A stretch of DNA of 20,139 bases from Polyangiales bacterium (lineage in GTDB: Bacteria > Myxococcota_A > Polyangia > Polyangiales > Ga0077539). The translations under genes and the position numbers were made by a program. The notes under the pieces were generated by a model. The model did no database searches, was not told the origin of the DNA, and worked only from the letters and a program-made list of their open reading frames with translations. The stretch lies in contig JBGARZ010000009.1 in assembly GCA_044229975.1 (NCBI GenBank), forward strand, positions 411,947 through 432,085, given 5' to 3'. This document shows, piece after piece, positions 8,815 through 16,636 of the stretch (position 1 is the stretch's first letter; each line of letters opens with the position of its first letter).

Positions 8815-9741
8815 GTGCTCATGAACACCTCGTCGTCGCGTCGTGGCCTCTCGCTGGTGATGTTCGCGCTGCTCGCGACGGGTTGCGGGGCGTCGGTGTC
8901 GTCGGCGCCGGTGACGGTGGAGAGCGACGCCGGGAGCGTGGTGACGGACGCGCCGACGCCGGTCGCGCCGATGACGTGGCCGAGCTGTGCCGAGGTGCGG
9001 GCGACGTGCGGGGCCGAGCCGCAGCGCCTGGTGCGCGGACACGCCGAGGGGCTGACGGGGCTCGACGGCGCGCGGGTGCGCTTCGCGATGCGGTACATCC
9101 GCGAGGAGGGCAACGGGCTCAACGTTCCGCACGGCGTGGTGGTGGCGGGGGCCGAGGTGCGCGACGGGGCCTTCGAGGCGTGCGTGTGCATGCCGATGGG
9201 CGGCAACAACTACCCGCAGGTGGTGGCGGTGGTGTTTGCGCCGGGGACGACGGGGGAGACGAGCCGCGAGGTGGCGCGGGCGACGTTCAGCCAGCGCTAC
9301 GCGACGCTGGGCAGCGAGAACCTGTCGTACGCATTGAGCGGGGTGGCGTCGGCGCCGGTGGTGGAGGCATCGCTCGCGGGGCTGGTCGAGCGCGCGCACA
9401 CGGTGCGGGTGCGCGGCGTGGAGACGGCGGCGGCGATGGAGGGAAGGGTCTACGCGGGTCTGGTGGCCGACGAGCGGCCCGTGGCGGCGCAGGTGGTGAC
9501 GGGCGGCGCCGTCGAGGGCGGCGCGCTGGGCTTCGAGTGGATCATGCCGGGGCGCGAGTGGCCGAGCGAGCGCGTGGCGATGGTGGTCGACCGCAACGGC
9601 AACCGACGGTGTGACGAAGGGGACGTCGGCGCGACGGTGCGGCTCGATGGGCGGCGCGAGGTGGATGGCGTCGCGTGGGTGCAGGGCGACGCGCTGGCGG
9701 GCGTGTGCGCGGCGCTGCGGATGGAGTCGGAGCGGGAGTAG
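8815..9741 (+). CDS. Hypothetical lipoprotein (about 308 aa).
   Basis: GTG at 8815 or ATG at 8821. Signal peptide 'MNTSSSRRGLSLVMFALLATGC' with lipobox ATGC. No recognisable catalytic motif. Confidence 0.55.
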   Translation: MLMNTSSSRRGLSLVMFALLATGCGASVSSAPVTVESDAGSVVTDAPTPVAPMTWPSCAEVRATCGAEPQRLVRGHAEGLTGLDGARVRFAMRYIREEGNGLNVPHGVVVAGAEVRDGAFEACVCMPMGGNNYPQVVAVVFAPGTTGETSREVARATFSQRYATLGSENLSYALSGVASAPVVEASLAGLVERAHTVRVRGVETAAAMEGRVYAGLVADERPVAAQVVTGGAVEGGALGFEWIMPGREWPSERVAMVVDRNGNRRCDEGDVGATVRLDGRREVDGVAWVQGDALAGVCAALRMESERE

Positions 9742-9764
9742 CGGCGGGGTCGTTGCGCCCGGCT

Positions 9765-9887
9765 GCCGCGCACTGAAGTACGCGGCAACGTTGCGGACAT
9801 CGAGCATGGCACTGCAAGTCCGCTCTGCGGACTTTGCATGGAATTGCGTCATCCCTTCCGGCGTTGCCGCGTACTTCAGTGCGCGGC
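9765..9887. repeat. MITE-like element with perfect 26-bp terminal inverted repeats (gccgcgcactgaagtacgcggcaacg) flanking a 71-bp core that carries its own internal hairpin (gcaagtccgc-tct-gcggacttTgc).
   Basis: Arms at 9765-9790 and 9862-9887 are exact reverse complements. It lies between the convergent lipoprotein and kinase genes. Confidence 0.6.
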
Positions 9888-9931
9888 GACGAGCGCGACG
9901 GCACCCGAAAGAGTGGACGAATCAGGAGTCT

Positions 9932-11335
9932 CTACTCGACCGGGACGTGCTCGTGGGCCTGCGGGCGGACGGTGACCGCGGGCCGCGGCAACGGGCGCAA
10001 CACACGCGGCGCAACCCTCACCGGCGGACCTGCATCGACCACGAGCGCCTGCGTCGGGACCGCCACCGGAGGCGGTGACACGACGGGCGGAGGCGGAGGC
10101 GGCGGCGTCACCACCAGCGTCGGTGGCGGCGGCAGTGGCGCGTGGGCGGGCGCAGGCGCGGGGCTCGACGAGCCGACGAGGTACAGCGCCGTGAACGACA
10201 GGCCCGCGGTGGCGAGTGCCGCGGCGACGAGCAGCGGGGCGCGAGAGGGGCGCGGCGCGACGGACTGGGTGATGGGCTTGAGGGTGGTGGTGCGGTCGGG
10301 GGGCGGGCGCGGTCCGAGGACGGGCGCGGTGGTGAGGGCGTCCCAGCTCGCGGTGGCGGGGACGGCGGCGTCGAGGGCGCGGAGGAGGTCGCGCGCGTGC
10401 TGGAAGCGATCGGCCGGGCGCAGCGCGAGGGCGCGGGCGAGGACGGGCTCCCAGGGGCCGACGTCGAGGCCGAACTTCGCCGGGGTGGGGCGCGTGGCGG
10501 AGAGGACGTCGACGGTGAGGGCGGTGTTGTCGTCGCCGCGGAAGGGCGGGCCGTCGGTGAGCACCTCGACGAGGAGGAGCGCGAGGGCGTGGACGTCGGT
10601 CCAGGGGCCGGAGCGGGTCCCGCCGATCTGCTCGGGGGAGGCGTACGCGAGGGTGAAGGCGCGGAGGTCGGTGCGGGTGGCGGTCTCGCCGGAGGCGACG
10701 GTCTCGTCGAGGTCCATGGCCTTGGCGATGCCGAAGTCGAGGAGCTTCGGGGTGACGCCGTCGCGGGAGCGGGCGAGCATGACGTTGGCGGGCTTGAGGT
10801 CGCGGTGGGCGACGCCCTCGTCGTGCGCGATGGCGAGCGCCTCGAAGACCGGGCGCAGGAGCGCGAGGGCCTCAGCGGGAGGGCGGCCGGTGCGGTCGCG
10901 GCGGGCGTCGAGGATGGATTCGAGGGAGTCACCGTCGATCCATTCGAGGACGATCCAGGGGGCGGCGCCGCCTGATGGGAGGAGGCCGCCGCCGAAGTCG
11001 AGGACGCGGACGATGCCGGGGTGTTCGAGGCGGGCGATGGTGCGCGCCTCGAAGACGAACTTGTCGATGAACGACCGGCGGTGCGACTCCGGGATGGTCG
11101 ACGGGGTCTTGAGCACCTTGATGGCGACAGGCTTCTGGAGGGAGCGGTGGGTGGCCCGGTAGACGACGCCGAAGCCGCCCTCGGCGATGAGGGAGTGGAC
11201 GTCGTATTTGCCGTCGAGGCGGGTTCCCAGGAGGGAGAAGGGGTCGGTGGGGGCGGCGGGGGGCACGGCGGGGGTTAGTTGAATTGTTCGATGACGAAAG
11301 GGTTTGATACCGTTCCTGTGATCGGCCCAACACAA
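9932..11335 (-). CDS. Serine/threonine protein kinase (Hanks type). It has a C-terminal transmembrane segment and a proline-rich periplasmic tail.
   Basis: Motifs 'GGFGVVY', 'AIKVL', 'HRDLKPANVM', 'DFGIAK' and 'ASPEQ'. Transmembrane segment 'LLVAAALATAGLSFTALYLVG'. Poly-Pro tail. The supplied start is a TTG at 11335 that overlaps the upstream gene. A GTG at 11266-11264 (MPPAAPTDPFSLLG...) lies 9 nt after the upstream stop and is the more likely start. Confidence 0.85.
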   Translation of the reverse strand: MCWADHRNGIKPFRHRTIQLTPAVPPAAPTDPFSLLGTRLDGKYDVHSLIAEGGFGVVYRATHRSLQKPVAIKVLKTPSTIPESHRRSFIDKFVFEARTIARLEHPGIVRVLDFGGGLLPSGGAAPWIVLEWIDGDSLESILDARRDRTGRPPAEALALLRPVFEALAIAHDEGVAHRDLKPANVMLARSRDGVTPKLLDFGIAKAMDLDETVASGETATRTDLRAFTLAYASPEQIGGTRSGPWTDVHALALLLVEVLTDGPPFRGDDNTALTVDVLSATRPTPAKFGLDVGPWEPVLARALALRPADRFQHARDLLRALDAAVPATASWDALTTAPVLGPRPPPDRTTTLKPITQSVAPRPSRAPLLVAAALATAGLSFTALYLVGSSSPAPAPAHAPLPPPPTLVVTPPPPPPPVVSPPPVAVPTQALVVDAGPPVRVAPRVLRPLPRPAVTVRPQAHEHVPVE

Positions 11336-12138
11336 GGCGGATAGCGCGCGTCGGGAGCAACGATTTCCAATCTCAGCGAGTAACTACGTCCCGCGTCGAG
11401 TCGGTATAGTTCGTGACCGGTGATGTTTAGTGGTGTCCCCATAGGCGGCTCCGATACGAGGCGGACCGTGTAAGAGTTTCCATGGGTGTCGTTCGCGGCT
11501 ACGCTACTAAGGGGTACCGATGTAACCTCATAGTAGGCTGAGGCCGATGCCGTAAAGGCGATGCTGAACTGCGGCCCCATCAGCGGAATCGCCAAAACGG
11601 AAGGAGATGAGGGACATGGAACACTGATGCTATCTACTGTGGGACTCGTCGGCCTCCAACTCCCAATCACCACCTGCCTTCCCGCTGGTCGCGCTTCTAC
11701 CGCCGCAATCCTCGCCTCCAGCGCACCCGCGGCGGCCGTCGCCCGCCCGGCCTCCAACGCATACGGCACGGCGCCCAGCTTCGACCGCGGGAACGTCGTC
11801 CCCTCCACCTGCACCTCGGCCCACAGCTCCGGGTTCGCCCGCACCGCGCCGACACACGCCGCATCCAGCGCCACCCGGAATCGCCCGCCCGTGAACGTCG
11901 TCCCCACCGCGGTCGTCGAGCACACCGTCGCGCCCGCCGTGGCAGCGTCCCACAGCCGCACCGTGACGTTGCGCGCGCCTTCCACCGGGCGCCCGCCGTC
12001 ATTGAGCACACCGCCGTAGTACAGCGGGTTCACCGCCGGGACGCCGTCCGCTCGCGCTCGCCCGACGCGATAGGCGACAACGCCCACGACGAGACAAGCG
12101 CCAACGCTCCACACCAGGAGGGAGGAGGGTCTCTTCAT
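11275..12138 (-). CDS. Signal-anchored (N-terminal transmembrane) protein, paralogue A. It has a conserved N-terminal beta-rich domain ('VRLWDAATAG...GRFRVALD...ELWAEVQVEGTTFPRSKLGAVPYALEA') and a variable C-terminal domain.
   Basis: ATG at 12138-12136 with GGAG 9 nt upstream. The remainder of supplied ORF 11275..12423 lies inside the palindromic repeat and is not coding. Transmembrane helix 'LLVWSVGACLVVGVVAY'. About 90% identical over residues 20-150 to the gene at 12809..13675. Confidence 0.7.
   Translation of the reverse strand: MKRPSSLLVWSVGACLVVGVVAYRVGRARADGVPAVNPLYYGGVLNDGGRPVEGARNVTVRLWDAATAGATVCSTTAVGTTFTGGRFRVALDAACVGAVRANPELWAEVQVEGTTFPRSKLGAVPYALEAGRATAAAGALEARIAAVEARPAGRQVVIGSWRPTSPTVDSISVPCPSSPSVLAIPLMGPQFSIAFTASASAYYEVTSVPLSSVAANDTHGNSYTVRLVSEPPMGTPLNITGHELYRLDAGRSYSLRLEIVAPDARYPPCVGPITGTVSNPFVIEQFN
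11651..12050. repeat. Copy 1 of a ~400-bp direct nucleotide repeat (about 90% identity with 13179-13580). It covers the 5' coding part of paralogue A.
   Basis: Aligned by eye. Identity begins exactly at 'ggcctccaactcccaatcac', which encodes VIGSWRP, and runs toward the gene start. Confidence 0.7.
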
Positions 12139-12171
12139 ACGATAGGACTCCAGGTGGGCCTGACTTGAGGC

Positions 12172-12440
12172 GATGGGGAGTGGTTCAGGCCAGTGTGCGT
12201 CGCTGGGGTTCGGGCGCTGGCCCTCACCCCAGGCAATAACAAGCAGGCGCCCCGGACAGGGTCCGGGGCTTTCGACCAGGAACTCGTTGAAGCCAATGAC
12301 ACCATGCGAGATCCGCGTCGTAAGACCCATCGAGTGTCGGTTCGAAAGCCCCGGACCAGTCCGGGGCGCCCGCTTGTTATTGCCTGGGGTGAGGGCCAAC
12401 GCCCGAACCCCAGCGACGCACACTGGCCTGAACCACCATC
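12172..12440. repeat. Large composite palindrome. Arms of ~100 bp (about 96% identity) flank a ~65-bp centre. Each arm ends in an 8-bp GC hairpin (ccccggac-agg-gtccgggg) followed by CTTTCGA.
   Basis: Left arm 12172-12275 and right arm 12341-12440 are reverse complements with 3-4 mismatches. The palindrome also appears as mirrored 'proteins' in supplied ORFs 12173..12709(+), 12193..12666(+) and 12135..12875(-). Confidence 0.6.
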
Positions 12441-12491
12441 AAGCGACGTCCCGACCTCGCGCATCCCGTCGACGAGCATCCACTCACGCTC

Positions 12492-12718
12492 GCCCAATGC
12501 GTCCTTACCCGAGGGGGCGCTCCCGCCCAGGCCCTCCCAGCGCGTCCTTACCCGAAGGGACGCGACCGCCCACGTCAGCGGTATCCGGTCTCCGTCGGGA
12601 AGCTCGACGCGCGCCGGATCGGACCTCCGCGAACGCGAACGTAGGTGGTCGCGTCCCTTCGGGTAAGGACGCGTTGGGAGGGCCTGAGTGCGAGCACCCC
12701 TTCGGGTGAGGGCGCATT
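12492..12718. repeat. Second nested palindrome, a REP/BIME-like cluster. Four copies of a ~24-nt hairpin unit (cgcgtccttacccgaagggacgcg and variants) are arranged as two inverted pairs.
   Basis: 12539-12572 is the reverse complement of 12643-12678 (2 mismatches). 12492-12522 is roughly the reverse complement of 12688-12718. Each unit contains a cUUCGg or GAA-loop hairpin. Confidence 0.5.
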
Positions 12719-12808
12719 GGGACAGCCCGGGTGAATGGGCTGTTGAACGGAGACGCGGAGCCGATGCGCTCAAATGGTCAACCCGCAAGAGGCAGTCGTG
12801 AGCATCCA

Positions 12809-13675
12809 TCACTCCAACTGCTCCGCCATCATGGGCCTTCGCGCGAAGAACTCCGTAGCCGGACTCGTTCGACATGCCACGTCCGCACGCATCTCTACGA
12901 AGAACGAGTATTCTCTTCCAGTTTCAAGACGAAAGACGGCTTCAAGTCGATCTCCGATCTCACTCCTATCAAACACCAAAGCAGCAGGAACACTCGAAGC
13001 CAGCCGCGTAAACCCAAGCGCAACCGTATTTTCTGCCGGTGCCGATACCCGATACAATCCGGCCGATGATGCAGTGAAGGTCAACGAGAACGGTTCACCC
13101 CCGATCCTCACATACGAGGTCGCGGGAGGCGGCGTCGTTGGACAGATAACGGGGAAGGTAACTGCTGTCGGCGTAGCCGGCCTCCAACTCCCAATCACGA
13201 CTTGTCTCGTCGCAGTTCTCCCCTCCACCGCCGCAATCCTCGCCTCCAGCGCCCCAGTCGCACCCGCCGCGCTCACCGCCCTCCCGGCCTCCAACGCATA
13301 CGGCACCGCGCCCAGCTTCGACCGCGGGAACGTCGTCCCCTCCACCTGCACCTCGGCCCACAGCTCCGGGTTCGCCCGCACCGCACCGACGCACGCCGCG
13401 TCCAGCGCCACCCGGAAGCGCCCGCCCGTGAACGCCGTCCCCGCCGCGCTCGTCGTGCACACCGCCGCGCCCGCCGTCGCCGCATCCCACAGCCGCACCG
13501 TCACGGCCCGCACGCCCTCCACCGGGCGCCCGCCGTCACTCAACACACCGCCGTAGTACAGCGGGTTCATCGCCGGAACACCGTCCGCCCGCGCCTTCCC
13601 CAGCCGATACGCCGCGACCATGCCCACAACGGACAACGCCGCGGCGCCCAGCACCACGCCCCGCCGCGCCTTCAC
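12809..13675 (-). CDS. Signal-anchored protein, paralogue B. It has the same conserved N-terminal domain as 11275..12138 and a diverged but homologous C-terminal domain.
   Basis: GTG start at 13675-13673 (MKARRGVVLGAAALSVVGMVAAY...) overlaps the TGA of the upstream gene as GTGA. An ATG at 13714 is an alternative. Transmembrane helix present. 'AVPYALEA' block. Confidence 0.7.
   Translation of the reverse strand: MKARRGVVLGAAALSVVGMVAAYRLGKARADGVPAMNPLYYGGVLSDGGRPVEGVRAVTVRLWDAATAGAAVCTTSAAGTAFTGGRFRVALDAACVGAVRANPELWAEVQVEGTTFPRSKLGAVPYALEAGRAVSAAGATGALEARIAAVEGRTATRQVVIGSWRPATPTAVTFPVICPTTPPPATSYVRIGGEPFSLTFTASSAGLYRVSAPAENTVALGFTRLASSVPAALVFDRSEIGDRLEAVFRLETGREYSFFVEMRADVACRTSPATEFFARRPMMAEQLE
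13179..13580. repeat. Copy 2 of the ~400-bp direct repeat, covering the 5' coding part of paralogue B.
   Basis: See copy 1. It is also the source of the mirrored antisense ORFs 11561..12019(+) and 12774..13556(+). Confidence 0.7.
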
Positions 13676-14028
13676 GGCAACAACCCTCCCGTCAAACACA
13701 GCGTCCCCACGCATCCCGGTGCGCCCACCTCGAAGCCCGTCTCGCTCAGCTCCAGCGTCCCCATCGTGACGCTCCCGCCGCTCGTCGTCGCGATCCCCTG
13801 CGCCTGCATCACCAGCCCCGTCGCGCCTCCACCGTCGTCCGGCGTCCCCGCGTCACCCGTCACGTCACCCGTCGCATCCCCCATCACCCCGCGATCGCCC
13901 AACGCGCCATCAACCATCGCCGCCCCGACGTCCATCACCGCCGCGTCGCGCCTCGGTCGGTACACCCACTCCTCATCGGAGCACCCCGCCACCAGCACCG
14001 CGGCCACCGCCCACCGCGCCGCCTTCAC
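13672..14028 (-). CDS. Small Gly/Asp-rich lipoprotein (about 118 aa).
   Basis: GTG at 14028-14026 overlaps the upstream TGA as GTGA. Signal peptide 'KAARWAVAAVLVAGC' with lipobox LVAGC. Its stop overlaps the next start as GTGA again. Confidence 0.5.
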   Translation of the reverse strand: MKAARWAVAAVLVAGCSDEEWVYRPRRDAAVMDVGAAMVDGALGDRGVMGDATGDVTGDAGTPDDGGGATGLVMQAQGIATTSGGSVTMGTLELSETGFEVGAPGCVGTLCLTGGLLP

Positions 14029-15038
14029 AGCACGCCACCCACCGCGAGCCCGTTGCCCGTCGGAACCACCCACGTCGTCGGTCGCCCCTCCGCCGCGCTC
14101 CCCCCGCTCGCCCGCGCCACCAGAAACCACACCACCCCGCCCGCCACCATCGCGCTGCCGACCCCGATGGCCACGTTGGTCCCCGTCGTGAACCCGCGCA
14201 TCCGCTCGTCCGCGTCGATGGACGACGCGTCACACCCACCCGCGTCGCACGCCCCGTCGCGCTCGCTCATCGCGCCGCCGTGCATCCCCCACAGCACGCC
14301 CGCACCCACGAAGGCCGCCGCCCCGACGCCCGCCAACACCCACGGCCCGGCGCCCACCCCGCGACGCACCGGCCCCTCCGCCGGCGCCACCGCCCTCGGC
14401 GCTTCCACCACGGTCCGCGGCGCCGGTCGCACCACCGCATCCGCGGCTCTCGGCGCGTCAAGCGCGACCTCGGCGCTCGCTCCCGCGGTCACCGTCACCG
14501 TCACCGTCTGCGCGTGATGGAGCGCCTCGTCGCTCACGCGCACCGTCACCTCGCCCGGATCAACCGGCACCGCCACGCCCCACGCCGCCGCGGGCAGCTC
14601 GCGACCGCCGACGGTTACCGCCGCGTTCGTGAGCCCGGCCGGAACGCGCACCGTCAGCCGCCCGACCCGCCCCGAGAGAGCCCCCGTGAGCTCGCGACAG
14701 ATGCCGAGGATGCGATCGCGGTTGCGCAGGGCCGCGTCGGCGGTGGCGTCGGCGGTGCAGCGTCGCGCGTGATCGAGCGCCGTGACGAAGTGCCCGAGCT
14801 GCTCATGTTCCTGCGCGAGCAGGAGCGCCAGCGACGGCGTCATCCGCAGGGCCGCCGCGCGACCGGCGAGCTCCGCGGCCTGCGCGTGGTCGCCCGCCTC
14901 ACGGGCGCGCTCGGCCTGCGCGACGAGGTCACGCCGTAGCGCGTCGGTGTCGGTCTGCGCGAGCGCCGTCGAGGTGGTCGTGAGCAGCGCGACCGCACAC
15001 ATGACCGAGCGCGCCCACCGTCCGATCGTCCCGCTCAT
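14025..15038 (-). CDS. Secreted, membrane-anchored hypothetical protein. It has a signal peptide, a helical (TPR-like) N-terminal region, a beta-rich PEGA-like middle, and two C-terminal transmembrane helices.
   Basis: ATG at 15038. Signal peptide 'MSGTIGRWARSVMCAVALLTTTSTALAQ'. Segment 'LTVRVPAGLTNAAVTVGGRELP...GEVTVRV' resembles a PEGA-type beta-sandwich. Hydrophobic segments 'GPWVLAGVGAAAFVGAGVLWGM' and 'VAIGVGSAMVAGGVVWFLVA'. Confidence 0.55.
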   Translation of the reverse strand: MSGTIGRWARSVMCAVALLTTTSTALAQTDTDALRRDLVAQAERAREAGDHAQAAELAGRAAALRMTPSLALLLAQEHEQLGHFVTALDHARRCTADATADAALRNRDRILGICRELTGALSGRVGRLTVRVPAGLTNAAVTVGGRELPAAAWGVAVPVDPGEVTVRVSDEALHHAQTVTVTVTAGASAEVALDAPRAADAVVRPAPRTVVEAPRAVAPAEGPVRRGVGAGPWVLAGVGAAAFVGAGVLWGMHGGAMSERDGACDAGGCDASSIDADERMRGFTTGTNVAIGVGSAMVAGGVVWFLVARASGGSAAEGRPTTWVVPTGNGLAVGGVL

Positions 15039-15127
15039 CGGGGCAGGAAGGTAGTCGCGGCGGCGGGCGACCGTCTACCCGGGACGGACCCTCCGATGCG
15101 CCACCACCCACGCGACCCGCCGACCCT

Positions 15128-15325
15128 TCACTTCCGACCGCGCTTCTCGTACGCCCCGATCATCGCTTTCAGCTTCACCGCCCGCGCCTCGCTCGCGCCC
15201 CGCGTGTGCCGCGTCGAGACGATCGCCAGCGCGATCTCGTACGCGGCCAGCACCGCGGCGAGGCCCGCAGCGATGGTGGCAGCGATCGGAGCGGTCGGAG
15301 CAGCGGTAGTGGTTCGCTTCATCAT
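15128..15325 (-). CDS. Possible small membrane protein (65 aa, MMKRTTTAAPTAPIAATIAAGLAAVLAAYEIALAIVST...EKRGRK). A plus-strand ORF 15096..15398 is a competing reading of the same positions.
   Basis: High third-position GC, but the third positions coincide with the plus frame. The plus ORF's TGA overlaps the fic ATG as ATGA. Neither has a good Shine-Dalgarno sequence. Confidence 0.2.
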   Translation of the reverse strand: MMKRTTTAAPTAPIAATIAAGLAAVLAAYEIALAIVSTRHTRGASEARAVKLKAMIGAYEKRGRK

Positions 15326-15346
15326 CAATGTGCTCAAGGTCCGCTG

Positions 15347-15370
15347 GGCGACGCTACCCGACGCGTCGCC
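15347..15370. promoter_or_regulatory. 8-bp inverted repeat GGCGACGC-n8-GCGTCGCC 25 bp upstream of the fic ATG. An adjacent GCGATacgATCGC repeat follows. Candidate operator.
   Basis: Seen in the sequence, in the 5' region of the Fic gene. Confidence 0.2.
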
Positions 15371-15394
15371 GTGTCGCGATACGATCGCCGCTCG

Positions 15395-16636
15395 ATGATC
15401 TTCGCGGCGCGACAGCTCCCATGGTCCGTGGTCGACCCGGCGGGCATCCCCTTCGACCCGGCGCCCGCGTACGCCATCGCCCGCAAGCACTTCGCGGCGT
15501 TGTCTTCCACCGACCGCGTCCACGCCGCCCACGGTCACTACCACCTCGACCTCGACCTCATCACCCACTACGGCGCCTGGGCCTCCGGCTGGGACTGGAC
15601 CTCCTCCTACGGCGGCCCCCTCTCCCCTCCCGACGCCACCGACCACGCCGACGCCTGGGTCCAGCGCACCGTCACCTCGCTCGTGCGCTGGCGAGAGTTT
15701 CTCGAAGAGCTCGCCCTGCTCCAGATGTCCCTTCGCGAAGAGACCGACGGCCTCCCGCTCGCAGACCGCATCGAGCACGCCGCCGCCCGCTACCTCCCGC
15801 TCGTGCTCGACCTCACCGGCGCCACCGCCGAATGGTATGTGACCTTCAAGGTCGCCTTGCGATGGCACGTCGAGTCGCTCGGCGTCGTCGACCCGCGCGT
15901 CGCACGCGTCATCGGTGACGTCGTCTCGGGTGTGTTCGAGAGCTGGTGCGCTCCGTCGAGCGCCACCGCCGCGTCGACGTGCGCCGAGCTCGGACTCCGC
16001 GTCGGCGAACTGAACGCGAGCCCCGTCAAACTCGGCGACGCCCTCGCCCGCTGGTGGACGCGACGCGCCGAGACCACCTGGCACAAGCCCCGCTCACGAC
16101 AACCTGGTCCCGTCACCACCGACGGACACCGCGCCTTCATCGAGCGACGCGACGCCGCCCGCTCGGCCGATCGCGCCCGCCACATGAACGACGCGCTCAC
16201 GTTCATCCGGGCGGAGGCCAACGCGCAGCGACCGCTCTCGTGGACGATGCTCCGCGAGGCGCAGCGACACGTGCTCGGCGTTGCGTCGGTGGACTTTCGC
16301 GACGGCGACGCCTTCGCCCACCACGGGCGCGAGCGCTACGCCCTCGGCGCCGACACCTTCGAACGCTTCGAGAACTGCCTCGCCAACGCAGCCCGCCCGT
16401 CGCTCCCGCCGCTCGCGAGGGCAGCGCGCGTGTACCTCGACGTCTGCTTCGTGCACCCCTTCGCCGACGGCAACGCCCGCGCCGCGCGCCTCGCGCTCGA
16501 CCACGTGCTCACCACCGCCGGGCTCGCGCTGCACACCGCGGAGCCGGTGTTTCTCCTACCGCGCCGCGCCGACGACCCGATGAACGGCGCCAACCTGATG
16601 TACCTGCTCGATCAGCTCTCGAGTCCGACCCGCTGA
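15395..16636 (+). CDS. Fic/Doc family protein, a putative AMPylase/adenylyltransferase. It carries a variant active-site motif, HPFADGNARAAR.
   Basis: C-terminal 'DVCFVHPFADGNARAARLALDHVL' matches the Fic signature HPFx[DE]GNGRxxR with the second Gly replaced by Ala. ATG at 15395. The upstream part of supplied ORF 15206..16636 is Arg/Gly junk. The ~300 aa N-terminal region is unrecognised. Confidence 0.7.
   Translation: MIFAARQLPWSVVDPAGIPFDPAPAYAIARKHFAALSSTDRVHAAHGHYHLDLDLITHYGAWASGWDWTSSYGGPLSPPDATDHADAWVQRTVTSLVRWREFLEELALLQMSLREETDGLPLADRIEHAAARYLPLVLDLTGATAEWYVTFKVALRWHVESLGVVDPRVARVIGDVVSGVFESWCAPSSATAASTCAELGLRVGELNASPVKLGDALARWWTRRAETTWHKPRSRQPGPVTTDGHRAFIERRDAARSADRARHMNDALTFIRAEANAQRPLSWTMLREAQRHVLGVASVDFRDGDAFAHHGRERYALGADTFERFENCLANAARPSLPPLARAARVYLDVCFVHPFADGNARAARLALDHVLTTAGLALHTAEPVFLLPRRADDPMNGANLMYLLDQLSSPTR

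What the first reader, a model, noticed from the sequence alone, without database searches (positions are those of the whole stretch)
12809..15038. Three-gene leftward operon linked by two GTGA start/stop overlaps
The stop of the secreted PEGA-like membrane protein overlaps the GTG start of a 118-aa Gly/Asp-rich lipoprotein (TGA at 14027-14025, GTG at 14028-14026). The stop of that lipoprotein overlaps the GTG start of paralogue B (TGA at 13674-13672, GTG at 13675-13673). Two consecutive 4-nt overlaps imply tight translational coupling and fixed stoichiometry among three envelope proteins: a membrane protein, a lipoprotein and a signal-anchored protein. The ORF track shows other starts (14130 and 13714), so this architecture would be missed by naive annotation.
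Basis: seen in the sequence. Interest (0 to 1): 0.55.

Follow-up and report, generated by a model that had tools for sequence, protein, structure and literature searches.

The report
Coupled fibre–lipoprotein–kinase envelope gene cassette
The two four-base gene overlaps are real and conserved but ordinary; they sit inside a larger, undescribed gene cassette of uncultured myxobacteria that links a short fibre protein with a swappable binding tip to a membrane protein, a lipoprotein and a signalling kinase.

Summary
Codon-position GC switches frame at each junction. Public gene calls (NCBI and Logan) already use these starts, so the layout is not missed by standard annotation. Nine to ten distinct related Myxococcota loci keep an in-frame NTGA overlap at both junctions, each preceded by a G-rich ribosome-binding-like motif.

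Four-base overlaps are the commonest gene junction in prokaryotes, so the feature itself is ordinary. It does not prove fixed stoichiometry.

The unit is five genes, not three. A is an exported TPR plus beta-sandwich protein with a hydrophobic helical hairpin. B is a lipoprotein. C is a short fibre: a conserved N-domain, one long helix and a hypervariable tip whose model resembles TNF/C1q-like domains and phage receptor-binding heads. A 667-nt spacer holding two giant hairpins follows. Then come C', a second fibre with a different tip, and a single-pass Ser/Thr kinase with a conserved C-terminal peptide.

Tip-coding halves have GC3 near 0.55, against about 0.9 for the rest of the operon. C resembles Bdellovibrio mosaic adhesive trimer (MAT) fibres. 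My best guess, which is inferred, is an envelope ligand-recognition complex, possibly signalling through the kinase.

The parts
14025..15038 (-). Gene A, 337 aa. Sec-type signal peptide, TPR-like helical domain (about residues 30-122), beta-sandwich (126-192), disordered Pro/Ala linker, two hydrophobic helices (231-252 and 288-309) flanking an acidic loop with two nearly invariant Cys, and a C-terminal beta-hairpin.
14025..14028 (-). A/B junction GTGA. B's GTG start overlaps A's TGA stop.
   Evidence: Sequence. In-frame NTGA at this junction in all related loci, each giving a lipoprotein signal peptide.
14035..14043 (-). G-rich SD-like motif GGTGGGTGG, 6 nt upstream of B's start, encoded by A's C-terminal ..VGGVL codons.
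   Evidence: Sequence. Equivalent G-runs sit at the same place in all loci.
13672..14028 (-). Gene B, 118 aa lipoprotein. Lipobox V-A-G|C, conserved CS(D/N)(D/E)EW..R N-terminus, variable Gly/Asp/Thr-rich linker, and a conserved C-terminal unit ..SETGFE.G..C.G.LC..GGL(V/L)P with two Cys.
   Evidence: NCBI protein P0147 is identical and also 118 aa.
13672..13675 (-). B/C junction GTGA. C's GTG start overlaps B's TGA stop.
   Evidence: Sequence. ATGA or GTGA at this junction in all related loci.
13684..13690 (-). SD-like GGGAGGG, 8 nt upstream of C's start, encoded by B's conserved Gly-Gly.
12809..13675 (-). Gene C, 288 aa short fibre. Hydrophobic N-terminus with an A-R-A|D motif, conserved beta-rich N-domain (about residues 35-125, two invariant Cys), long helix (125-152), and a hypervariable beta-sandwich tip (159-286).
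12812..13210 (-). Low-GC tip-coding half of C (GC 0.56, GC3 0.56, against 0.76 and 0.91 in the 5' half).
12142..12808 (-). Spacer between C and C' holding two unrelated giant hairpins, IR1 at 12477-12737 and IR2 at 12180-12436. It is probably an insertion of dispersed palindromic elements.
   Evidence: RNA fold -507.6 kcal/mol, z = -21.8. The two elements are unrelated to each other. The spacer is present in the close relative L018 but absent in L003, where the gap is 33 nt. IR2 copies occur in three unrelated metagenome contigs.
11275..12141 (-). Gene C', 288 aa second fibre paralogue. Its N-domain is 87% identical to C and its tip 29% identical. The tip half has GC3 0.58.
   Evidence: NCBI protein P0054.
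9932..11266 (-). Gene K, 444 aa Hanks-type Ser/Thr kinase. Cytoplasmic kinase domain, TM segment 343-365, 79-aa Pro-rich extracytoplasmic tail ending in the conserved ..RPQAHEHVPVE-COOH. Its GTG start lies 8 nt after C' stops.
   Evidence: Pfam Pkinase 2e-36. Sequence. Tail conservation. Hydropathy.

Best explanation
The two GTGA junctions are genuine, evolutionarily maintained stop/start overlaps. They lie inside a conserved leftward cassette of an uncultured Myxococcota lineage with the gene order A-B-C-(spacer)-C'-K.

Translation (inferred from anatomy and literature). A ribosome terminating at the TGA of A, and then of B, reinitiates at the overlapping GTG. It is helped by a G-rich SD-like motif encoded by conserved Gly-Gly codons. 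Synthesis of B and C is therefore tied to translation of the upstream gene.

Products (shown by models and homology):
- A is an exported TPR plus beta-sandwich protein held in a membrane by a helical hairpin.
- B is a lipoprotein with a flexible linker and a small Cys-stabilised C-terminal unit.
- C and C' are short fibres resembling mosaic adhesive trimer (MAT) fibres. Each has an invariant beta-rich N-domain immediately after the signal sequence, one long helix read here as a coiled-coil neck, and a swappable tip resembling TNF/C1q-like domains and phage receptor-binding heads.
- K is a single-pass Ser/Thr kinase with a long Pro-rich outer tether ending in a conserved peptide.

Function (inferred, not shown). 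A and B hold or assemble the fibre through its invariant N-domain in the cell envelope. The variable tips bind an external or periplasmic ligand, probably a glycan or a surface epitope of other cells. In this lineage, occupancy is relayed to kinase K, perhaps by docking of K's conserved C-terminal peptide to A's TPR domain.
For: Overlaps and starts:
- Sequence and GC3 frame switches.
- Identical starts in the NCBI and Logan gene calls.
- In-frame NTGA at A->B and B->C in every related trio, using GTG, TTG or ATG.
- SD-like G-runs 6-10 nt upstream in all loci.
- Literature: 4-nt overlaps give tight termination-reinitiation coupling, and overlapping pairs often encode subunits of heteromeric complexes (PMC6728339, PMC10666635).

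Cassette:
- A-B-C(1-3 copies)-kinase synteny in L002, L003/L009, L006/L007, L010, L011, L012 and L018.
- A, C and K stay linked in a rearranged order (C..K-A, or K-A) in the divergent loci L015-L017.
- A homologous TPR protein, lipoprotein and fibre trio without a kinase occurs in distant relatives.

Folds:
- AF2 models with pLDDT 82-83.

Tip swapping:
- Median pairwise identity is 70% for the N-domain and 16% for the tip.
- Tips in the wider N-domain superfamily (3064 cluster representatives) include Collar, C1q, FGE-sulfatase, Peptidase_S74, BclA_C, H-lectin, discoidin and collagen. The published MAT fibre family lists S74, TNF-like, FGE and collagen-like tips among its members (PMC10769870 and its Table S3).

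Kinase:
- Pkinase 2e-36.
- Conserved C-terminal HEHVPVE peptide after a variable Pro-rich tether in all cassette kinases.
Against: - There is no experimental or co-folding evidence that A, B, C and K interact.
- Overlap does not fix stoichiometry.
- In this genome a 667-nt spacer with two very stable hairpins separates A-B-C from C'-K and could uncouple their expression.
- Distant A-B-C-like trios lack a kinase, so signalling may be a lineage-specific add-on or mere neighbourhood.
- A's topology is ambiguous. The basic residues flank the hairpin and the acidic Cys-containing loop lies between the helices, which fits poorly with a periplasmic N-domain.
- Homology of C's N-domain to the Bdellovibrio MAT N-domain was not tested directly.
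- The trimeric state is inferred from fold relatives only.
- The TPR-peptide docking idea has no direct support.
Confidence: 0.55

Rival explanations
1. This is a pure adhesin or display module. A and B are the anchoring or assembly factors for a fibre (C, C') used for prey, kin or substrate adhesion, as with Bdellovibrio MAT fibres. The kinase is only a neighbour or a transcriptional or post-translational regulator, not a receiver of fibre occupancy.
For: Distant homologous trios of TPR protein, small lipoprotein and fibre occur without any kinase. The tip repertoire matches that of adhesive MAT fibres. The MAT paper states that the cell-side partner of the invariant N-domain is unknown. B lacks a Lys at position +2, which in M. 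xanthus marks inner-membrane retention, so it may be an outer-membrane lipoprotein (PMC3222651).
Against: The kinase gene starts 4-25 nt after the last fibre gene in every close cassette. It also stays next to A and C after rearrangement. Its outer tail carries a conserved terminal peptite-like motif, HEHVPVE-COOH, with no evident role other than docking.
Confidence: 0.3
2. The true starts are the longer ORF starts (GTG 14130 for B, ATG 13714 for C). The genes would then overlap by 106 nt and 43 nt, and the GTGA motifs are incidental.
For: Both longer ORFs are open. GTGA at a TGA stop is expected often by chance in DNA this GC-rich.
Against: GC3 stays in the upstream gene's frame until each junction. 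The ATG at -39 is absent in L003, L006 and L013. The -45 GTG is explained by A's nearly invariant Trp codon. The short starts give a textbook lipoprotein signal peptide and a conserved M-K/N-x-R-R N-terminus. Two independent gene-calling sources chose the short starts.
Confidence: 0.04
3. This is a polymorphic toxin or effector system. C and C' would carry exchangeable low-GC C-terminal effector domains, like Rhs or CDI tips, and a neighbouring small protein would be the immunity factor.
For: A conserved N-terminal part is joined to a hypervariable C-terminal part with a sharp GC drop, and variants are arrayed in tandem. This is the same signature as Rhs core and tip, which I cite from general knowledge.
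Against: The tips fold as, or match, TNF/C1q, Collar, lectin and discoidin binding domains, not toxin folds. No small variable gene follows each tip. B lies upstream, is conserved at both ends and is a lipoprotein. PADLOC and toxin libraries were not searched.
Confidence: 0.04
4. This is a remnant of a prophage, tailocin or contractile injection system whose receptor-binding protein genes survive.
For: The best structural matches are phage RBP heads and tail fibres. Collar, S74 and Gp10_C tips occur in the superfamily.
Against: PHROGs gives no hit for A, B, C or C'. The Pfam-identified neighbours in the window are cellular genes: Fic, acyl-CoA dehydrogenase, lipase and imelysin. The cassette is syntenic with a kinase across many genomes.
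Confidence: 0.03

Closest known systems
Overlapping stop/start gene pairs (ATGA/GTGA, -4 overlap) translated by termination-reinitiation (Huber et al. 2019, PMC6728339; PMC10666635)
   Same: Co-directional genes share four bases, NTGA. An SD-like motif lies inside the 3' end of the upstream gene. The overlap is conserved among homologues. The products are plausibly subunits of one complex.
   Different: Nothing unusual. The start codons are GTG or TTG rather than ATG at most A->B junctions. Coupling itself is untested here.
Mosaic adhesive trimer (MAT) fibres of Bdellovibrio bacteriovorus, e.g. Bd2734 and Bd2439 (Caulton et al. 2024, PMC10769870)
   Different: C is only 288 aa, against about 600-1100 aa, with a short helix as the only stalk. 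It is encoded in a cassette with a TPR/beta-sandwich membrane protein, a lipoprotein and a Ser/Thr kinase, which was not reported for MATs. Tip-coding DNA has a strong GC3 deficit. Sequence homology of the N-domains was not tested.
Lactococcal siphophage receptor-binding proteins (Tuc2009/TP901-1 BppL head; BppU/ORF48 N-domain)
   Different: 11% sequence identity, no phage context and no PHROG hit. C carries an N-terminal hydrophobic export or anchor sequence.
C1q/TNF-family trimeric ligands and bacterial relatives (BclA, Photorhabdus TNF-like lectin, Chlamydia Pgp3)
   Same: Jelly-roll tip following a helical or collagen-like neck. Some family members hit Pfam C1q and BclA_C.
   Different: The window protein itself has no Pfam C1q hit. 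Trimer formation and ligand are unknown.
Myxobacterial receptor-type Hanks kinases with extracytoplasmic TPR/PEGA sensor domains (from general knowledge, not tested here)
   Same: A kinase domain, a single TM segment and extracytoplasmic TPR/PEGA-type modules are all present in the cassette. JGI labelled two A homologues 'serine/threonine-protein kinase'.
   Different: Here the TPR/beta-sandwich module (A) is a separate polypeptide. The kinase carries only a Pro-rich tether with a conserved terminal peptide.

Membership tests
Translationally coupled -4 overlapping gene pair | Co-directional genes whose stop and start codons share NTGA | tested here: met
   GTGA at 14028-14025 and at 13675-13672.
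Translationally coupled -4 overlapping gene pair | SD-like motif within the 3' end of the upstream gene | tested here: met
   GGGAGGG lies 8 nt before C's start. GGTGGGTGG lies 6 nt before B's start and is the weaker match. Equivalent motifs occur in all loci.
Translationally coupled -4 overlapping gene pair | Downstream translation depends on upstream translation | not testable with these tools
   This needs reporter fusions with upstream premature stops, or ribosome profiling.
Bacterial lipoprotein (B) | Signal peptide ending in the lipobox [LVI][ASTVI][GAS]C | tested here: met
   MKAARWAVAAVL-VAG|C in the window. Homologues have LAGC, LGGC, LTAC and similar when read from the overlapping start.
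PEGA domain protein (PF08308) (A) | Significant match to the PEGA profile | tested here: inconclusive
   The window protein gives no hit at E <= 1. Two of 40 family members hit PEGA (4e-5) and CarboxypepD_reg. AF2 shows a small beta-sandwich at residues 126-192.
TPR protein (A) | Helical-hairpin repeat fold, or a TPR profile match | tested here: met
MAT fibre superfamily (C, C') | Conserved beta-rich N-domain of about 130 aa immediately after the signal peptide | tested here: inconclusive
   The architecture is met. Homology to the Bdellovibrio N-domain could not be tested because no sequence or structure of it was available.
MAT fibre superfamily (C, C') | Variable, independently folding C-terminal tips (S74, TNF-like, lectin and similar) | tested here: met
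   Tip identity has a median of 16% against 70% for the N-domain. Tips include Collar, C1q, FGE, S74, BclA_C, H-lectin, discoidin and collagen.
MAT fibre superfamily (C, C') | Homotrimeric fibre displayed on the cell surface | not testable with these tools
   Only monomer models were possible. The trimer is inferred from the fold relatives listed; their trimeric state comes from PMC10769870 for the TNF-like tips and otherwise from general knowledge.
TNF/C1q-like jelly-roll domain (tip of C) | Fold match to TNF/C1q family structures | tested here: met
Hanks-type Ser/Thr protein kinase (K) | Pkinase profile above the gathering score, with catalytic HRDLKPxN and DFG motifs | tested here: met
   PF00069 at 126 bits against a cut-off of 31.7. 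HRDLKPAN and LLDFGIAK are present.
Diversity-generating retroelement target | Reverse transcriptase plus a template repeat near the variable region | tested here: not met
   No RT was found among the ten longest window ORFs scanned with Pfam. The only repeats of C in 10500-15300 are the N-domain paralogy with C'.

The most novel reading that the evidence does not exclude
A and B are the long-sought cell-side partners that hold the invariant N-domain of MAT-like fibres. In this Myxococcota lineage the assembly has been wired to a eukaryote-like Ser/Thr kinase through docking of the kinase's conserved C-terminal peptide. The result would be a modular 'lectin-tipped receptor kinase'. Its specificity would be re-programmed by swapping low-GC tip cassettes, giving a bacterial analogue of TNF/C1q-type ligand sensing used for prey, kin or glycan recognition.
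Probability: 0.15. Interest if true: 0.75.

Novelty: new variant of a known kind. Interest (0 to 1): 0.35.

Why it matters
The overlaps themselves add nothing new. They are a textbook operon feature and are already annotated correctly.

What may matter is the cassette they belong to.
- The N-domain of C defines a large family with no Pfam or NCBIfam model for the window protein: 3064 cluster representatives at 50% identity. These are short fibres with swappable tips.
- In this cassette the fibres come with two conserved partner proteins. The Bdellovibrio MAT study left the cell-side anchor of such fibres unidentified, so A and B are concrete candidates.
- Tight linkage to a membrane Ser/Thr kinase suggests a testable route from surface recognition to phosphorylation signalling in predatory or social Myxococcota.
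- The family-wide drop of about 30 points in GC3 in tip-coding DNA is a clean signature of cassette exchange or of an unusual mutational regime. It deserves an explanation.

Tried and rejected
Searches with no result:
- Pfam, NCBIfam and PHROGs on A, B, C and C' gave nothing significant.
- A profile of the C family against PDB sequences gave only a spurious WD40-like 'RLWD' match.
- Rfam at gathering threshold found nothing in the window.
- The sigma-70 promoter and intrinsic terminator scan of 9700-15500 found nothing, as expected for this GC content.
- Literature searches for this cassette found nothing.
- A metagenome scan for an IR1 core gave no hits.
- No N-terminal MAT sequences are in the paper's supplements.

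Look-ups that failed:
- Source-contig look-ups for P0001 and P0046 are not on record, so the organism name of the window is unknown. Relatives are all Myxococcota or 'Deltaproteobacteria' MAGs.
- The afdb50 fold library was unavailable.

Readings considered and rejected:
- A diversity-generating retroelement: no RT and no template repeat.
- A polymorphic toxin: the tips have binding folds and there is no immunity-like gene.
- A prophage remnant: there is no phage context.
- The longer ORF starts.
- The 246-aa ORF 12135..12875 and its mirror ORFs: these are artefacts of the palindromic spacer.
Full report
**1. The observation.**
On the minus strand the sequence reads ...GGC GTG CTG TGA AGG CGG... 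at 14040-14020 and ...TTG TTG CCG TGA AGG CGC... at 13686-13667. Gene A (15038..14025, 337 aa) stops at TGA 14027-14025. An in-frame GTG at 14028-14026 opens B (118 aa). B stops at TGA 13674-13672, and GTG 13675-13673 opens C (288 aa). The mechanical ORF list does show longer starts at 14130 and 13714. Every coordinate in the finding is correct.

**2. Whether the overlaps are more than chance.**
The tetranucleotide alone is not informative. With third positions about 90% G/C, a G before a TGA stop is common. The support comes from other lines.
- (a) Third-position GC stays highest in A's frame until about 14030, then switches to B's frame. It switches to C's frame at about 13700.
- (b) The short starts give B a textbook lipoprotein signal peptide (MKAARWAVAAVLVAG|C). 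They give C the N-terminus M-K-x-R-R plus a hydrophobic stretch.
- (c) The Logan contig carrying the same genes was called as 337 aa, 118 aa and the next gene, with 4-nt overlaps. The NCBI proteins from the source assembly are 118 aa (P0147), 288 aa (P0046) and 287 aa (P0054).
- (d) In related loci every A->B junction is GTGA or TTGA in B's frame and yields a lipobox peptide. This holds even where the gene caller had chosen a later ATG. It covers 10 distinct trios: window, L018, L002, two in L003, L006, L010, L011, L013 and L014. Every B->C junction is ATGA or GTGA, in 9 distinct trios.
- (e) The upstream ATG at 13714 has no counterpart in L003, L006 or L013. The conserved GTG 45 nt upstream of B's start is the by-product of A's nearly invariant Trp323 (xxG-TGG).
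- (f) G-rich SD-like runs lie 6-10 nt upstream of both starts in all loci. They are encoded by conserved Gly-Gly codons.

The starts are therefore well supported and the overlaps are selectively maintained.

**3. How unusual this is.**
It is not unusual. About 15% of co-directional pairs overlap in most prokaryotic groups, and the 4-nt overlap is the commonest class. It supports termination-reinitiation coupling (PMC6728339). Such pairs often encode complex subunits (PMC10666635). Unrelated -4 overlaps occur in the flanks of the related loci, for example the BPD_transp_2 pair in L002 and the gene overlapping ApbE in L006. Coupling does not set a fixed ratio (PMC6728339). The claim that annotation would miss the layout holds only for a longest-ORF rule.

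**4. The real unit.**
Downstream of C lies a 667-nt spacer. After it comes the paralogue C' (12141..11275). Eight nt after its stop is a GTG-initiated Hanks-type kinase K (11266..9932; Pkinase 2e-36).

The order A-B-C(1-3 copies)-K recurs in MAGs labelled Myxococcales, Myxococcota or Deltaproteobacteria, sometimes as ABC-ABC-C-K. A close relative, GCA_044228995.1 (L018), shares the whole neighbourhood. In the more divergent loci the order is C..K-A or K-A. Distant relatives have a homologous trio of TPR protein, small lipoprotein and fibre without a kinase. A, B and C therefore form an old module, and the kinase is a tightly linked addition in this clade.

**5. The proteins.**

*Protein A.* The AF2 model (pLDDT 83) shows five features:
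- a helical TPR-like domain;
- a small beta-sandwich (residues 126-192);
- a disordered linker;
- two long hydrophobic helices (231-252 and 288-309) around an acidic loop with two nearly invariant Cys;
- a terminal beta-hairpin.

*Protein B.* It has conserved ends and a variable Gly/Asp/Thr linker. Its +2 residue is Ser, Ala or Asn, not the Lys associated with inner-membrane retention in M. xanthus (PMC3222651). This is a weak hint of outer-membrane anchoring.

*Kinase K.* It has one TM segment (343-365). A variable Pro-rich outer tail follows and ends in a conserved ..HEHVPVE-COOH.

**6. Tip swapping and composition.**
Across 55 family members the N-domain has a median pairwise identity of 70% and the tip 16%. 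Of 307 pairs with N-domains at least 80% identical, 244 have tips below 30%. C and C' are 87% identical in the N-domain and 29% in the tip.

In all 12 fibre genes examined, the tip-coding half has GC 0.52-0.60 and GC3 0.49-0.67. The 5' half of the same gene has GC3 0.71-0.92. A, B and K in the window have GC3 0.87-0.94. I could not establish the cause. Horizontal exchange of cassettes, as with Rhs tips, is the obvious candidate.

The N-domain alone retrieves 3064 cluster representatives (943 at E <= 1e-10). Most are 250-320 aa and have the domain at the same position. Their tips include Collar, C1q, FGE-sulfatase, Peptidase_S74, BclA_C, Gp10_C, H-lectin, discoidin and collagen.

This matches the published description of MAT fibres. 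[quoted passage not shown] Their tips are swappable and include S74, TNF-like, FGE and collagen-like kinds. One listed member comes from a Myxococcales bacterium (PMC10769870). That paper notes that the cell-surface partner of the N-domain is unknown.

**7. Mechanism.**
Shown: conserved overlapping starts, conserved synteny, the predicted folds, and the modular tip variation.

Inferred: translational coupling; assembly of A, B and C into an envelope complex; ligand binding, probably of a glycan, by the tips; relay to K; and docking of K's terminal peptide to A's TPR domain. The adhesin-only reading is a serious rival. The polymorphic-toxin, prophage-remnant and long-start readings are unlikely.

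**8. Verdict.**
It is incomplete because the unit has five genes including a kinase. It overstates stoichiometry and annotation novelty. The overlaps are ordinary. The cassette is an undescribed variant of a known kind, MAT-like fibres, and is moderately interesting.

Noticed in passing
window 12142-12808 (IR2 12180-12436; IR1 12477-12737): Two unrelated giant hairpins, each about 260 nt, fill the C-C' spacer (RNA fold z = -21.8). They are present in the close relative L018 and absent in L003/L009, where the gap is 33 nt. IR2 copies at 80-95% identity occur in three unrelated metagenome contigs (L022-L024), with extra copies of its 36-39-nt terminal segment nearby in L023 and L024. IR2 is therefore a dispersed MITE- or REPIN-like element. 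IR1 gave no exact hit elsewhere.
   Followed up: partly
window 12812-13210 and 11278-11670; also L002, L003, L006, L010-L013, L018: The tip-coding halves of all 12 fibre genes examined have GC3 0.49-0.67, against 0.71-0.92 in the 5' half of the same gene. This intragenic compositional break runs through the whole family and its cause is unexplained.
   Followed up: partly
window 9932-10180 (kinase C-terminus): After a variable Pro-rich tether, the kinase's extracytoplasmic tail ends in a conserved peptide (RPxxHEHVPVE-COOH) in all cassette kinases. The K-A pair of L016 has a similar ..DDRIPAE end. It is a possible docking motif.
   Followed up: partly
window 12135-12875 (-), 12173-12709 (+), 12193-12666 (+): Long ORFs on both strands through the spacer translate to near-identical peptides (for example GQCASLGFGRWPSPQAITS). 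They are mirror artefacts of the palindromes. The caller annotated a 242-aa 'gene' at the equivalent place in L018.
   Followed up: yes
window 15206-16636 (+): A divergently oriented Fic-domain gene (Pfam Fic 9.6e-8) lies next to the cassette. It is conserved in the close relative L018 and in the Logan contig L001. A 65-aa hydrophobic ORF (15325..15128, minus strand) sits between it and gene A.
   Followed up: no
L003/L009 (ENA k141_2156669; CANJUR010000058.1): The cassette is duplicated as A-B-C, A-B-C, C, K. The three fibre genes carry three different tips, and dynamin-like GTPase genes and a UvrD/PD-(D/E)XK helicase gene lie upstream.
   Followed up: no
L021 5184-5963 and 6404-7684: A distant member of the fibre family lies about 440 nt upstream of a 426-aa putative lipoprotein that has TNF-receptor cysteine-rich repeats (PF00020 TNFR_c6). 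It is a curious pairing for a family whose tips are often TNF/C1q-like.
   Followed up: no
window 15002 vs 15038: The NCBI protein for A (P0001, 325 aa) starts at Met13. That residue is Thr in the 93%-identical P0002, and the truncated form lacks a charged n-region. The ATG at 15038 is the better start.
   Followed up: yes
L018 7309-7996: In the close relative GCA_044228995.1 the first fibre gene downstream of B was not called, and a 134-aa reverse ORF was annotated instead. The B->C GTGA junction and an ORF carrying the fibre N-domain motif are still present there. This is a possible pseudogene or annotation miss.
   Followed up: no
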